Shown here piece after piece: positions 1 to 1,235 of a stretch of 1,235 bases of DNA. Position numbers and translations under genes: made by a program. This DNA comes from Naegleria gruberi. Lineage: Eukaryota. Position 1 is the first letter of the stretch. Every line of letters starts with the position of its first letter. Location of the stretch: the NCBI GenBank assembly GCA_000004985.1, contig GG739487.1; one strand, written 5' to 3'. Below the pieces are notes generated by a model. That model saw nothing but the letters and a program-made list of their open reading frames with translations, was not told the origin of the DNA and did no database searches.

Positions 1-306
1 CTTTTTGTTGCTTCTATTATCATACATAGCAGTGATATAATTCCATCAAACTTATTCCTCCATTGCGATTGGAGCGAATGTAAGTCTGAACACTTTCCGC
101 CATACCCTAACTAGTTTTTAATAACTTAGCTGGTAGTGTATACAATTTGAGTTCGACAAGTGGTTATTGCTCTCGCCTATCTCCATTCAAAAGGAATGGT
201 CCACAGAGATTTGAAACAAACCAATATTTTCATTGCAAAATCTCCAGAAAACCCTCAATCTTCATCAAAATGGAATAATGATTTTTTATGGTCTTTCTTT
301 TCATAA
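1..306 (+). pseudogene. Protein-kinase catalytic-domain remnant (subdomains about V to VIb, then a degenerate DFG-like 'DFL'). It is truncated at TAA 304-306 with no activation segment or C-lobe. Either a kinase pseudogene or an exon fragment; 5'-partial.
   Basis: Frame 1 from 151 to 303 translates to VRQVVIALAYLHSKGMVHRDLKQTNIFIAKSPENPQSSSKWNNDFLWSFFS*. ALAYLHSKGMVHRDLKQTN is the kinase helix-E/catalytic-loop signature (HRDLKxxN at 202-225). Frame 1 from 1 to 79 (…LFLHCDWSE) joins in phase 1 across a GTAAGT…TTTGAG intron (80-151). That gives …DWSEFRQVVIALAYLHS…, which matches the usual '…FSE..AR…QI..AL.YLHS' spacing. The ORF stops 27 residues after HRD-N with only 'KWNNDFLWS' in place of 'K..DFGLS', and the convergent gene begins 18 nt later, so no remaining kinase exons can follow in this window. 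Confidence 0.55.
80..151 (+). other. Putative spliceosomal intron (GTAAGT … TTTGAG), phase 1, in the kinase-like gene
   Basis: There is a canonical dictyostelid donor GTAAGT at 80-85. Frame 1 is closed in between by TAG 112-114, TAG 127-129 and TGA 148-150, but it reopens exactly in the kinase frame when 79 is joined to 152 (t|tt = Phe). An alternative acceptor TTAG at 126-129 is phase-compatible only with frame 3, which loses the HRD frame. Confidence 0.4.
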
Positions 307-324: not shown

Positions 325-1235
325 TTATTCTTTTCTCTTCTTTAAAATTGATCTAAAATCTACTTGTTGAGCTTCACCAGCACTATTAGCAGTAACAGCA
401 GCACCACTTGTTGGAGTAGAAGGTGTTGATGATACAGATGATGGTGGTGTTGTTGTTACTGGTGTTGTAGTTGTGGTTGATTTAATAGGTGGTGGTGTTG
501 TTACTGGTGTAGTAGTAGAAGTTGGAGTAGTAGTATTTGATGTTTTGTTTTTGAGTTGAGATCTAAAATCAACTTGTTGAACTCCTCCACCACCAGTAGT
601 AGCAGTAGTAGATGGAGGTGGATTGGATGGTTTTGATGGTGGAATTTCATTCTTTTTATCTTGTACAACTTGAACAGATGGTGGTGAAGTATTTGATTGA
701 TCTTCTGTCTTTTTCTTTAAATTTGATCTAAAATCAACTTGTGTACCACTTCCTGTATTATTATTAGTATTAGGTGAAGTAGTAGTTCTAGTTGTTGTTG
801 ATGGTGGTGGAGTAATAGTATTATTATTATTACTCTTAGTAGTATCAATTGAAGATGGTTGAGTGGTAGAAGAAGAAGATGGTTGATCTTTCTTTTTTAA
901 ATTAGATCTAAAATCAATTTGACCACTTGAAGGAGTATTAACACTATTACTTGTATTACTTGTATTAGTATTAATAGTATTAATAGTATTTGGTGAAGTA
1001 GCAGAAGTATTTAAATTACTTGTAGATTCCTTCTTTTTCAATGCAGATCTAAAATCAACTTGTTGAACACTTCCTCCTCCAACTGATGATGATGATGTAT
1101 TATCATTTGATTGAGTATCATCTTGTTGAGTTTTCTTTAATCTCATTTCAGATAATACTGATTGTGAAATTGCAACACTTAATCTTCTATTAGCATCATT
1201 TGTTACTGACACTGATGATGGTGATGTTATTGCTG
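325..1235 (-). CDS. C-terminal portion (5'-partial in window) of a Ser/Thr/Asn/Pro-rich low-complexity protein with 5 (+1 degenerate) copies of a QQVDFRSxLKKK motif and a polybasic KKRKE C-terminus. Family not recognised.
   Basis: A single uninterrupted minus-strand frame from the window edge to TAA at 327..325, more than 300 codons in an AT-rich genome where random open frames are short. The 'M' at 1212 in the ORF track is GTG (plus-strand 'cac' at 1210-1212), and the frame stays open upstream (…AITSPSSVSV…) to 1235, so the start lies outside the window. Codon usage is strongly biased (AGA, GGT, ACT/ACA, TCA, AAT). The motif is conserved at regular spacing across divergent linkers, which argues for selection on the protein. 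Confidence 0.8.
   Translation of the reverse strand, partial: AITSPSSVSVTNDANRRLSVAISQSVLSEMRLKKTQQDDTQSNDNTSSSSVGGGSVQQVDFRSALKKKESTSNLNTSATSPNTINTINTNTSNTSNSVNTPSSGQIDFRSNLKKKDQPSSSSTTQPSSIDTTKSNNNNTITPPPSTTTRTTTSPNTNNNTGSGTQVDFRSNLKKKTEDQSNTSPPSVQVVQDKKNEIPPSKPSNPPPSTTATTGGGGVQQVDFRSQLKNKTSNTTTPTSTTTPVTTPPPIKSTTTTTPVTTTPPSSVSSTPSTPTSGAAVTANSAGEAQQVDFRSILKKRKE
331..369 (-). repeat. Motif copy 5 (C-terminal): QQVDFRSILKKRK, followed by E-stop
   Basis: + strand core 'gatctaaaatc' at 350-360. The protein ends KKRKE with TAA at 327..325. Confidence 0.85.
544..579 (-). repeat. Motif copy 4: QQVDFRSQLKNK (aa 212-223)
   Basis: + strand core 'gatctaaaatc' at 560-570. It shares 24 identical nt with copy 1 and is preceded by GGGGVQQ (copy 1 has GGGSVQQ). 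Confidence 0.85.
709..741 (-). repeat. Motif copy 3: QVDFRSNLKKK (aa 158-168)
   Basis: + strand core 'gatctaaaatc' at 725-735, followed by 'aacttg' as in copies 1 and 4. Confidence 0.85.
889..921 (-). repeat. Motif copy 2: QIDFRSNLKKK (aa 98-108)
   Basis: + strand core 'gatctaaaatc' at 905-915. D-F-R-S uses the same codons (GAT TTT AGA TC) as the other copies. Confidence 0.85.
946..990 (-). repeat. In-frame coding microsatellite: imperfect 9-nt tandem units encoding NTINTINTNTSNTSN
   Basis: + strand has 'tacttgtat tacttgtat' then 'tagtattaa tagtattaa tagtatt' at about 946-1000, a 9-nt periodicity that keeps the frame. This is typical of Asn/Thr-rich dictyostelid coding repeats. Confidence 0.7.
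1030..1065 (-). repeat. Motif copy 1: QQVDFRSALKKK (aa 50-61 of ORF-track numbering)
   Basis: The + strand has the core 'gatctaaaatc' at 1036-1046. The 24-nt 'agatctaaaatcaacttgttgaac' at 1035-1058 is identical to copy 4 (559-582). It is preceded by GGGSVQQ. Confidence 0.85.
1129..1164 (-). repeat. Possible degenerate sixth (N-proximal) copy: QSVLSEMRLKKT
   Basis: It aligns without gaps to the consensus Q-x-V-x5-L-K-K-[KT]. Q, V and LKK are retained, and the ending LKKT resembles the beta-thymosin 'LKKT' signature. The DFRS core is replaced. Confidence 0.4.

What the first reader, a model, noticed from the sequence alone, without database searches (positions are those of the whole stretch)
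331..1164. Five near-identical copies of a QQVDFRSxLKKK motif periodically embedded in divergent S/T/N/P-rich linkers
The motif is Q-[QV]-[VI]-D-F-R-S-x-L-K-[KN]-K. The D-F-R-S-x-L core is invariant in all five copies, whereas the 48-70-residue linkers between them are low-complexity and unrelated in sequence. Motif conservation against linker divergence is the signature of a functional short linear motif or mini-domain array, not simple-sequence expansion. The x-S-x-L-K-K-[KT] ending, including the N-proximal degenerate copy 'MRLKKTQQ', loosely resembles the 'LKKT' actin-monomer-binding signature of beta-thymosin/WH2 repeats (thymosin-b4 …KFDKSKLKKTET…). Multi-WH2/thymosin arrays in disordered, Pro/Ser-rich proteins are known in actin regulators. 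The match is imperfect: only two upstream hydrophobics (V.F), and the F-to-L spacing is shorter than in canonical WH2. The motif could equally be a docking site for something else, such as a calmodulin- or phosphatase-like partner. It may be an undescribed repeat family.
Basis: partly seen in the sequence, partly recalled or inferred. Interest (0 to 1): 0.7.

Follow-up and report, generated by a model that had tools for sequence, protein, structure and literature searches.

The report
Five MLCK-type DFRxxL actin-binding motifs
The five repeated QQVDFRSxLKKK stretches are real and match the "DFRXXL" motif that smooth-muscle myosin light chain kinase uses to bind actin filaments; here they sit in the disordered tail of a protein from an AT-rich, probably amoeba-like eukaryote, which suggests the motif is older and more widespread than the one kinase it was described in.

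Summary
A minus-strand ORF (stop at 325-327, open at the right edge) encodes 302 T/S/N/P-rich residues. It holds five copies of x-Q-[VI]-D-F-R-S-x-L-K-[KN]-[KR], spaced 47-70 aa apart, and those copies contain every Phe in the ORF. Synonymous codon changes inside the copies show that selection acts on the peptide, not on recently duplicated DNA.

The WH2/thymosin reading fails: there is no Pfam or PDB hit. The motif is instead the DFRXXL F-actin-binding motif of smooth-muscle/non-muscle MLCK. Rabbit MLCK has 'QQVDFRSVLAKK', which is 10/12 identical to copy 1.

A profile of the five copies, searched against 1.84 billion proteins, found 39 hits. Of these, 37 carry 2-9 DFRxxL motifs, and they include vertebrate MLCK. 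A profile built only from MLCK motifs finds exactly the five window copies.

The closest relatives are unnamed proteins with a PH domain and a C-terminal DFRxxL array, one of them from the heterolobosean Percolomonas. They end almost identically to the window ORF ('QQMDFRSILKKRRE').

Best explanation (inferred, not tested): a multivalent array that binds the side of an actin filament, one motif per actin subunit, probably anchoring a PH-domain protein to cortical actin. It is a new member of a known kind, and of moderate interest.

The parts
325..1235 (-). C-terminal part (302 codons plus stop at 325-327) of a protein-coding ORF that is open at the right window edge. T/S/N/P-rich and predicted disordered.
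   Evidence: translation. No other frame in this span has an ORF longer than 55 aa. AlphaFold2 single-sequence mean pLDDT is 44.3, with 239/302 residues below 50.
1030..1062 (-). DFRxxL motif copy 1: QVDFRSALKKK (aa 58-68)
   Evidence: 10/12 identical to rabbit MLCK 'QQVDFRSVLAKK'. Matched by the MLCK-only HMM at 14.6 bits. Local pLDDT island with helix 62-65.
889..921 (-). DFRxxL motif copy 2: QIDFRSNLKKK (aa 105-115)
   Evidence: MLCK-only HMM 15.4 bits.
709..741 (-). DFRxxL motif copy 3: QVDFRSNLKKK (aa 165-175)
   Evidence: MLCK-only HMM 14.7 bits.
544..576 (-). DFRxxL motif copy 4: QVDFRSQLKNK (aa 220-230)
   Evidence: MLCK-only HMM 11.4 bits.
328..366 (-). DFRxxL motif copy 5 at the extreme C-terminus: QVDFRSILKKRKE* (aa 290-302)
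   Evidence: MLCK-only HMM 17.5 bits. The same C-terminal ending occurs in P0009 (QQMDFRSILKKRRE), P0006 (QQVDFRSVLKKRND) and P0036 (QQLDFRSILKKRPE). Helix 293-301 in the AF2 model.
1129..1188 (-). Upstream element RRLSVAISQSVLSEMRLKKT (aa 16-35). It is not a DFRxxL copy and its role is unassigned.
   Evidence: Not matched by either motif profile. No WH2 Pfam hit. AF2 predicts helix 24-31 with pLDDT around 60. Similarity to the PH-family proteins is not significant.

Best explanation
The five repeats are DFRXXL-type F-actin-binding motifs, the same short linear motif that tethers smooth-muscle/non-muscle myosin light chain kinase (MLCK) to actin filaments. They are strung along an intrinsically disordered S/T/N/P-rich C-terminal tail.

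Proposed mechanism:
- Each ~12-residue motif ([EQ]-Q-[VILM]-D-F-R-x-x-L-K-K-K) docks on one actin subunit on the side of a filament. The D/R and F/L residues alternate electrostatic and hydrophobic contacts, and the basic tail adds charge attraction.
- The flexible 35-58-residue linkers let neighbouring motifs reach neighbouring subunits.
- The five weak sites therefore add up to a high-avidity attachment of about one protein per five actin subunits that may slide along the filament.
- The nearest relatives carry an N-terminal PH domain, so the whole protein most likely links a phosphoinositide-bearing membrane to cortical F-actin.

Shown here: the motifs, their peptide-level conservation, their profile-level equivalence to the MLCK motifs, the disorder, and the conserved C-terminal array in PH-domain relatives.

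Inferred: actin binding, the stoichiometry, the presence of a PH domain in this gene (its N-terminus is outside the window), and the membrane-cortex linker role.
For: (1) Sequence identity to the experimentally defined motif. Rabbit smMLCK N75 is printed in PMC4586593 and contains MDFRANL, QQVDFRSVLAKK and PDFRSVLGSKKK. BLASTP of the ORF against N75 aligns every window copy to motif 2, with up to 10/12 identities.

(2) Forward profile search. An HMM of the five window copies against 1.84e9 representative proteins gave 39 hits at E<=1e-3, each with 2-8 matched stretches. Of these, 37 carry 2-9 D[FYV]RxxL-type motifs. They include vertebrate MLCK fragments P0020, P0022 (a fish Ig-like protein), P0029, P0032 and P0035 at E 3.6e-5 to 4.2e-4. 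By my own comparison of the two printed sequences, P0032 differs from the published N75 fragment at 2 of 75 positions.

(3) Reciprocal search. An HMM built only from 18 vertebrate-MLCK motif instances finds exactly the five window copies and nothing else in the ORF (69.8 bits).

(4) The extended consensus of 128 distinct non-window instances is Q(-2) 84%, V/I/L/M(-1) 69%, S(+3) 34% (the commonest residue), and K at +6/+7/+8 in 57/49/45%. The window copies match it at every position.

(5) Published function of the motif:
- It binds F-actin at one motif per actin monomer. The three-motif MLCK-147 fragment has Kd 0.26 uM.
- Mutating the motifs reduces binding to filaments in vitro and in cells.
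- The MLCK fragment that carries them is largely unstructured when free (PMC2196421).
- Five motifs suffice for stress-fibre targeting of long MLCK (PMC2185581).

(6) The ORF is predicted disordered, with small confidence/helix islands exactly at the motifs.

(7) Peptide-level purifying selection acts on the motif, and the linkers are unrelated.

(8) Relatives P0006 and P0041 (Pfam PH hits), P0009 (partial PH sequence plus an upstream PH exon) and the fragment P0036 keep a collinear C-terminal array ending in the same terminal motif.
Against: - No binding experiment exists for any non-MLCK DFRxxL protein. The function is transferred from a 6-12-residue motif, and short motifs can arise convergently or be reused for another partner.
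- Spacing here (47-70 aa) differs from the 28-29 aa of MLCK and from the 23-32 aa seen in 73% of other arrays.
- The flank statistics are biased, because those instances were retrieved with a profile made from the window copies.
- The N-terminus of the gene is outside the window, so the PH-domain context is inferred only from similarity of the C-terminal end.
- The organism is unknown.
- The atomic binding mode of DFRXXL on actin is itself only a low-resolution model.
Confidence: 0.65

Rival explanations
1. WH2/beta-thymosin-type G-actin-binding repeats. Each copy would bind an actin monomer through an amphipathic helix plus LKKT, sequestering or nucleating actin.
For: The motif ends in L-K-K-K, which superficially resembles LKK[TV]. 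The repeats lie in a disordered protein, as in multi-WH2 proteins. Direct reading only; no tool result supports this.
Against: Pfam WH2 (PF02205) and Thymosin (PF01290) gave no hit at E<=10 for the ORF or for its N-terminal 38 aa. Neither is among the 25 families listed for the 39 family members at E<=1. The repeat profile hits no WH2- or thymosin-containing PDB chain at E<=10. The invariant residues D, F, R and L are not the WH2 signature. The hydrophobic triad LLxxI is absent, and the F-to-L distance is 4 residues, shorter than in WH2. The profile search retrieves MLCK-type arrays instead.
Confidence: 0.04
2. A docking motif for a different partner (protein phosphatase 1, calmodulin or an unknown domain), with the resemblance to the MLCK motif being convergent or reflecting a shared non-actin ligand.
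For: Short linear motifs are often reused. V-D-F resembles the [VI]-x-F core of the PP1 RVxF motif, and relative P0006 has K-V-D-F. No experiment links non-MLCK copies to actin.
Against: None of the five window copies has the basic residue required before V-x-F (they have Q-Q-V-D-F or G-Q-I-D-F). An acidic residue at the x position is atypical for RVxF (background knowledge). There is no IQ or 1-10/1-14 hydrophobic spacing for calmodulin. The conserved positions (Q-2, D, F, R, L, basic tail) coincide with the MLCK motif across 128 instances. For MLCK, F-actin binding through these very residues has been demonstrated.
Confidence: 0.15
3. The polybasic tails (LKKK/LKKRKE) are the functional part. 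They would act as membrane-binding (acidic lipid) or nuclear-localisation patches, and DFR would be incidental.
For: K is enriched at +6 to +8 in all copies, and the C-terminal KKRK fits a monopartite NLS pattern (direct reading). Relatives have a lipid-binding PH domain.
Against: The invariant part across all relatives is D-F-R-x-x-L. The basic positions are only 45-57% K, and some MLCK motifs lack them (DFRANLQRQ). A purely electrostatic patch would not need an invariant D, F and L.
Confidence: 0.08
4. A lineage-specific simple repeat with no function, or a spurious ORF in low-complexity DNA.
For: The ORF is highly low-complexity. The whole-ORF word-index search found no homologue.
Against: The frame stays open for 303 codons in DNA that is 33% GC. 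There are synonymous changes inside otherwise invariant motif codons. Motif arrays are conserved in distant eukaryotes, including Percolomonas and vertebrates. The linkers diverge while the motifs do not.
Confidence: 0.02

Closest known systems
DFRXXL (DXRXXL) F-actin-binding motifs of smooth-muscle/non-muscle myosin light chain kinase (MYLK). There are three in short MLCK and five in long MLCK (Smith et al. 1999; Hatch et al. 2001, PMC2196421; Poperechnaya et al. 2000, PMC2185581).
   Same: The core D-F-R-x-x-L is identical and so are the flanks (QQVDFRS-L-KK, 10/12 with MLCK motif 2). The motifs are tandemly repeated in an unstructured segment, and the number of copies (five) equals that of long MLCK. 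Profiles detect each other in both directions.
   Different: - Spacing is 47-70 aa and irregular, against 28-29 aa in MLCK.
- The array is at the extreme C-terminus, not N-terminal to Ig/Fn/kinase modules.
- No kinase domain can follow it, because the ORF ends 5 residues after motif 5.
- All five copies have Ser at +3 and none is a DVR variant.
- The host looks like an AT-rich protist rather than a vertebrate.
- Actin binding has not been tested.
Unnamed family of proteins with a PH domain and a C-terminal DFRxxL array, found here: P0006/P0040 (JGI metagenomes), P0009 (Logan SRR32315873), P0011/P0041 (Percolomonas sp. WS, EukProt EP00818) and the fragment P0036.
   Same: The arrays of 3-6 DFRxxL motifs are collinear, with long irregular spacers (26-130 aa). 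They end at or near the C-terminus in the same terminal motif: [AV]QQ[VML]DFRS[IV]LKKR[KRNP][ED]*.
   Different: - The window does not include the N-terminal part, so the PH domain and the conserved middle region cannot be checked.
- Gene or contig GC differs (33% for the window against 40-51%), so these come from other organisms.
- There is no shared gene neighbourhood.
- No family member has a name or a studied function.
WH2 / beta-thymosin actin-monomer-binding repeats
   Same: A short motif in disordered regions, often tandem, ending in L-K-K-x and related to actin.
   Different: There is no profile match. The invariant residues differ. WH2 binds G-actin at the barbed-end cleft, whereas DFRXXL binds the side of F-actin.
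Nebulin/nebulette SDxxYK repeats (background knowledge, not tested here)
   Same: The same principle: many short repeats, each contacting one actin subunit along a filament, giving avidity and a defined stoichiometry.
   Different: Nebulin modules are about 35 residues long, helical and strictly periodic. There is no sequence similarity.

Membership tests
MLCK-type DFRXXL/DXRXXL actin-binding motif array | Core sequence D-[FV]-R-x-x-L | tested here: met
   Five of five copies are DFRSxL.
MLCK-type DFRXXL/DXRXXL actin-binding motif array | Similarity beyond the core, at profile level, to bona fide MLCK motifs | tested here: met
   The window profile retrieves vertebrate MLCK at E 3.6e-5 to 4.2e-4 in 1.84e9 proteins. 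The MLCK-only HMM finds exactly the 5 copies at 69.8 bits. Copy 1 is 10/12 identical to 'QQVDFRSVLAKK'.
MLCK-type DFRXXL/DXRXXL actin-binding motif array | Several tandem copies (3-5) within an unstructured segment | tested here: met
   Five copies. AF2 mean pLDDT is 44, with islands only at the motifs. MLCK-147 is reported to be largely unstructured.
MLCK-type DFRXXL/DXRXXL actin-binding motif array | Regular 28-29-residue spacing between motifs | tested here: not met
   Spacing is 47, 60, 55 and 70 aa, against 28-29 in MLCK.
MLCK-type DFRXXL/DXRXXL actin-binding motif array | Binds F-actin at one motif per actin subunit, and binding is lost on motif mutation | not testable with these tools
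   This needs co-sedimentation or imaging. It is known only for MLCK.
Myosin light chain kinase (MYLK) orthologue | Motif array followed by Ig/Fn modules, a Ca2+/calmodulin-regulated kinase domain and telokin | tested here: not met
   The ORF stops 5 residues after motif 5. The relatives with the same C-terminal ending have a PH domain and no Ig or kinase domain. The motif is shared, but the protein is not an MLCK.
WH2 (PF02205) / beta-thymosin (PF01290) | Match to the family profile | tested here: not met
   No hit at E<=10 on the ORF or on its N-terminal segment. Not among the families listed for 39 relatives at E<=1. No WH2 or thymosin PDB chain at E<=10.
WH2 (PF02205) / beta-thymosin (PF01290) | Amphipathic helix with three hydrophobic positions (LLxxI), then a linker, then LKK[TV] | tested here: not met
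   Only V/I and F precede the L, and the F-to-L distance is 4 residues. The residue after KK is K, R or N, not T or V.
WH2 (PF02205) / beta-thymosin (PF01290) | 1:1 binding to G-actin | not testable with these tools
   A biochemical assay is needed.
PP1-docking RVxF motif | [RK]-x(0,1)-[VIL]-{P}-[FW] | tested here: not met
   The residues before V/I are Q-Q, G-Q or T-Q in all five copies.
PH-domain / C-terminal DFRxxL-array protein family (unnamed; P0006, P0009, P0041, P0036) | C-terminal DFRxxL array ending in QQ[VML]DFRS[IV]LKKR-x-[ED] at the C-terminus | tested here: met
   The window ends EAQQVDFRSILKKRKE*, against P0009 GAQQMDFRSILKKRRE*, P0006 VQQVDFRSVLKKRND* and P0036 VQQLDFRSILKKRPE*. 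The BLASTP alignments are collinear.
PH-domain / C-terminal DFRxxL-array protein family (unnamed; P0006, P0009, P0041, P0036) | N-terminal PH domain and conserved middle region | not testable with these tools
   The N-terminus of the gene lies outside the window. The source contig was not found. Similarity of window aa 1-52 to the family is not significant.

The most novel reading that the evidence does not exclude
DFRxxL is not an MLCK peculiarity but an ancient, pan-eukaryotic motif that binds the side of actin filaments, and it predates animals. In amoeboid protists (a dictyostelid-like organism here, and Percolomonas in Heterolobosea) it would form the C-terminal anchor of a conserved, so far unstudied family of proteins with a PH domain and a DFRxxL array, linking phosphoinositide membranes to cortical actin. 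MLCK and many unnamed animal proteins, with up to 9 copies, would have inherited or recruited the same module.
Probability: 0.35. Interest if true: 0.65.

Novelty: new member of a known kind. Interest (0 to 1): 0.5.

Why it matters
In the papers I could search, the DFRXXL motif is discussed only in connection with MLCK. The profile search shows arrays of it in at least 37 protein clusters. These include non-kinase PH-domain proteins from protists in a different eukaryotic supergroup.

If these arrays bind F-actin, three things follow:
- The motif becomes a general, predictable filament-targeting module that annotation pipelines lack. The Pfam scans run here matched no family to these motifs.
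- A whole unnamed PH-domain family gains a testable function as a membrane-cortex linker.
- Natural variants with very different spacer lengths (23 to more than 70 residues) become available for studying how multivalent disordered tethers bind and diffuse along filaments.

For this window, it replaces a speculative WH2 assignment with a specific, experimentally grounded one.

Tried and rejected
- Whole-ORF homology search through the word index found nothing, probably because low-complexity words swamped it. The same tool with the 5-repeat alignment found only one candidate. With P0006 as query it returned only P0006 itself. One search failed because the query was too short.
- The PDB profile search gave only chance hits at E>0.3, with no WH2, thymosin or MLCK chain.
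- I tried three ways to find the source contig, and so the N-terminus of the gene: an exact look-up of a window-encoded ORF, an exact 30-mer scan of metagenome contigs and a motif-pattern scan (12 pattern matches, none passed tblastn). All were negative, so the organism and the full architecture remain unknown.
- Synteny: the genes downstream of P0040 (an ankyrin protein) and of P0009 (an RGS protein) differ from the window's kinase fragment.
- 'MRLKKTQQ' as a sixth, degenerate copy is rejected. Neither profile matched it, and it has no significant similarity to the relatives.
- Rejected on sequence pattern: PP1 RVxF, calmodulin-binding and simple-repeat readings.
- Non-coding RNA on either strand: only sub-threshold Rfam hits and no tRNA.
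- Smith et al. 1999 (PMID 10506206), the original mutagenesis paper, is not held in the library. Its content is cited only as reported by PMC2196421 and PMC2185581.
Full report
**1. What is in the window**

The 1235-nt window is 33% GC. Its right three quarters carry a single long reading frame on the minus strand. That frame is open at the right edge and closes with TAA at 327-325. No other frame in that span has an ORF longer than 55 aa.

The 302 translated residues are dominated by T (57), S (54), N (29) and P (27). Codon choice and composition look like an AT-rich amoeboid protist, dictyostelid-like or possibly heterolobosean. The source could not be identified.

**2.

DFRSxL occurs five times, with D at aa 60, 107, 167, 222 and 292, and a D-to-D spacing of 47, 60, 55 and 70 residues. 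Aligned, the copies read xxGSxQQVDFRSxLKKK, with Q(-2), D, F, R, S, L and K(+6) invariant.

- All five Phe of the ORF lie in the motifs.
- The ORF's own composition predicts 0.0002 matches to DFR..L.
- None of 20,000 shuffles contained even two DFR.
- The DNA repeat finder recovers the same five sites independently (family D3, 35 nt, 77-83% identity).
- Within the 11-codon core, V, S, L and K codons differ silently between copies (GTT/GTA, TCT/TCA, TTG/TTA/CTC, AAA/AAG). There are 29 synonymous and 21 non-synonymous pairwise codon differences, and the non-synonymous ones fall at -1 (V/I), +4 (the x position), +7 (K/N) and +8 (K/R).
- Nei-Gojobori dS is high or saturated, while dN is 0.04-0.24.

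The copies are therefore old, and they are maintained at the peptide level. The linkers have different lengths and share only composition.

AlphaFold2, run on the single sequence, gives mean pLDDT 44. Confidence rises above 50 only at aa 6-34, at a few very short stretches (1-5 residues) in the linkers, and at the five motifs (59-65, 107-110, 166-170, 221-224, 291-302). Short helices are predicted at 62-65 and 293-301. This is the picture of short binding motifs in a disordered chain.

**3. It is not WH2 or thymosin**

- Pfam hmmscan at E<=10 gave no WH2 or Thymosin hit on the ORF or on its first 38 residues, which contain 'MRLKKT'.
- Neither family appears among the families listed for 39 related proteins at E<=1.
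- A profile of the repeats found no WH2- or thymosin-containing chain in the PDB at E<=10.
- The invariant residues (D, F, R, L) are not those of WH2.

**4. What it is**

From memory, the motif resembled the DFRXXL actin-binding motif of smooth-muscle MLCK, and I tested that lead.

[quoted passage not shown] BLASTP of the ORF against this fragment aligns each window copy with 'QQVDFRSVLAKK', with up to 10/12 identities.

A profile of the five window copies was searched, without any word index, against 1.84 billion representative proteins.
- It returned 39 proteins at E<=1e-3, three of them at E<=1e-10. Each had 2-8 matched stretches.
- Reading the sequences and counting motifs shows that 37 of the 39 contain 2-9 D[FYV]RxxL-type motifs. 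The other two, P0010 and P0037, are unrelated repeat proteins.
- The hits include vertebrate MLCK fragments. P0032 differs from the published N75 fragment at 2 of 75 positions by my own comparison of the printed sequences. P0020 also shows the two extra long-isoform motifs, DVRGVL and DFRDLL, described in PMC7496663. P0022 is a fish 'Ig-like domain-containing protein'.

In the reverse direction, an HMM built only from 18 vertebrate-MLCK motif instances finds exactly the five window copies, at 69.8 bits.

Across 128 distinct non-window instances the extended consensus is Q(-2) 84%, V/I/L/M(-1) 69%, D-F-R, S(+3) 34%, L, and K at +6/+7/+8 in 57/49/45%. The window copies fit it at every position. 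One caveat applies: these instances were collected with a window-derived profile, so the flank frequencies are biased. The MLCK sequence from the literature is independent of that bias.

**5. Closest relatives and likely protein context**

Four hits share more than the motif.
- P0006/P0040 is 750 aa, with a Pfam PH domain at aa 8-110 (E 9e-8).
- P0011/P0041 has a weak PH hit. P0041 is a Percolomonas sp. WS transcript in EukProt.
- P0009 is 655 aa. Its called start lies inside a PH-like sequence, and the missing first half sits on an upstream exon in L001.
- P0036 is a fragment.

All four have a long linker and a C-terminal array of 3-6 DFRxxL motifs with long, irregular spacers (26-130 aa). 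The three non-Percolomonas proteins end with the same terminal motif as the window ORF:
- window: EAQQVDFRSILKKRKE*
- P0009: GAQQMDFRSILKKRRE*
- P0006: VQQVDFRSVLKKRND*
- P0036: VQQLDFRSILKKRPE*

. BLASTP aligns the window array collinearly, motif to motif, with those of P0006 and P0009, and puts gaps in the linkers.

The window gene is therefore most likely a member of this unnamed PH/DFRxxL family. The PH domain itself cannot be checked, because the N-terminus is outside the window.

Other hits pair the array with I-set Ig domains, as in MLCK (9 of 39), or are fragments with no recognised domain. Gene neighbourhoods are not conserved.

**6. How it most likely works**

For MLCK, the following points come from the literature read here.
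- The three-motif MLCK-147 fragment has Kd 0.26 uM.
- The free fragment is largely unstructured.
- Mutation of the motifs reduces filament association in vitro and in cells.
- EM reconstruction places the density on a site not used by other actin-binding proteins. The proposed model has D, F, R and L contacting Arg374, Val372, Glu366 and Tyr364 of actin.
- Five motifs suffice for stress-fibre targeting.
- MLCK diffuses one-dimensionally along filaments (PMC4586593, abstract).

By transfer, the window's five motifs would each dock on one actin subunit. The flexible 35-58-residue linkers are long enough to bridge adjacent subunits, which are 5.5 nm apart along a strand (background knowledge). 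Five weak contacts would then add up to a high-avidity, possibly sliding, attachment. With an N-terminal PH domain, the protein would tie phosphoinositide-containing membrane to cortical actin.

The motif identity, the disorder and the family architecture are shown here. The actin binding, the stoichiometry and the linker role are inferred. I put about 0.85 on the motif being equivalent to the MLCK motif, and about 0.65 on the full explanation.

**7. Rivals**

- WH2/thymosin: 0.04, see section 3.
- A docking site for another partner: 0.15. The PP1 RVxF pattern fails because no copy has the basic residue before V-x-F, and no calmodulin-type hydrophobic spacing is present.
- Polybasic lipid-binding or NLS patches as the real functional element: 0.08. 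The invariant part is DFRxxL, not the lysines.
- Non-functional simple repeat or spurious ORF: 0.02. This is contradicted.

**8. Novelty**

The motif kind has been known since 1999. In the searchable literature it appears only in connection with MLCK. Seven papers contain 'DFRXXL' and three contain 'DXRXXL'. Among the six peptide strings searched, the only protein-sequence match was 'VDFRS' in the MLCK paper PMC4586593, and 'DFRSVL' was likewise found only there. One paper remarks that C. elegans MLCK-1 lacks the motif. The Pfam scans matched no family to these motifs.

This makes the window a new member of a known kind. The unusual features are a non-kinase and probably PH-domain context, a C-terminal position, long irregular spacers and a protist host. 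The wider pattern, arrays in 37 clusters including Heterolobosea, is the more interesting by-product.

**9. Surroundings**

The left quarter of the window, on the plus strand, carries a fragment of a GCN2/eIF2-alpha-kinase-like kinase domain.
- Pfam Pkinase matches at E 3.2e-9.
- The best PDB hits are GCN2, at E 2.7e-9 to 4.6e-8.
- Removing a putative 72-nt GTAAGT...AG intron (80-151) joins '...DWSE' to '[31 protein letters not shown]'. That matches GCN2 '[34 protein letters not shown]' across the junction.
- The frame closes at 304-306, only 18 nt from the stop of the convergent DFRxxL gene. The DFG motif and everything after it are missing.

I did not resolve whether this is a pseudogene, a truncated gene or an unusual splice.

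No RNA family reached threshold and no tRNA was found.

Noticed in passing
window 1-306, + strand: A fragment of a GCN2/eIF2-alpha-kinase-like protein kinase (subdomains VIa-VIb: [30 protein letters not shown]), convergent with the DFRxxL gene. The reading frame stops at 304-306, 18 nt from the other gene's stop codon, so the DFG motif, the activation loop and the C-lobe are absent. It could be a pseudogene fragment, a truncated gene or an unusual splice; this is unresolved.
   Followed up: partly
window 80-151, + strand: A putative 72-nt spliceosomal intron (GTAAGT...TTGAG). Removing it joins '...DWSE' to 'F-RQVV...', which reproduces the GCN2 'W-x-x-F-R-Q' spacing. By eye, its GC content looks higher than I would expect for Dictyostelium discoideum introns, which hints at another dictyostelid or a heterolobosean host; neither figure was computed.
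   Followed up: partly
window 1129-1188, - strand (aa 16-35): RRLSVAISQSVLSEMRLKKT is the only region outside the motifs that AF2 gives some confidence (helix 24-31). It is not a DFRxxL copy, it has no WH2 profile hit, and it has no significant match to the relatives.
   Followed up: partly
P0006 aa ~345-375; P0009 aa ~405-425 (locus L001): The PH/DFRxxL relatives share a proline-rich basic patch (NTRPMKRRPSRKVS / NTRPQRPKRKPKSRPVS) about 80-120 residues before the first DFRxxL motif. It loosely recalls capping-protein-interaction (CPI) motifs. Not tested.
   Followed up: no
L001 8140-8866: The called gene for P0009 starts inside its PH-like sequence. An upstream exon (…GGQFKRRFLHMTNHRFLFYRSNSQ) followed by an intron supplies the missing first half, so the metagenomic gene call is truncated.
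   Followed up: yes
P0030 (448 aa, ENA contig 1.5 Mb); P0004 (627 aa, ENA contig 274 kb); P0001/P0002 (metagenome): Unnamed proteins with 5-9 DFRxxL motifs at 24-34-aa spacing. P0001, P0002 and P0004 have no convincing Pfam domain (P0001 only a sub-threshold T2SSN hit); P0030 was scanned only within the pooled. The motif is clearly used well beyond MLCK in animals or other eukaryotes.
   Followed up: partly
P0010 (879 aa), P0037 (686 aa): False positives of the repeat profile. P0010 is a fibre-like protein with many 'GGLTQQNFTTTLKNKLDGIA' repeats, and P0037 has 'SVSQADFVSG[MLIV]K' repeats in EF-hand-like units. Neither contains DFRxxL.
   Followed up: yes
window 378-472, both strands: A sub-threshold Rfam match to mir-194 (27.7 bits against a gathering score of 52), inside the GT-rich low-complexity coding region. 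Most likely chance.
   Followed up: no
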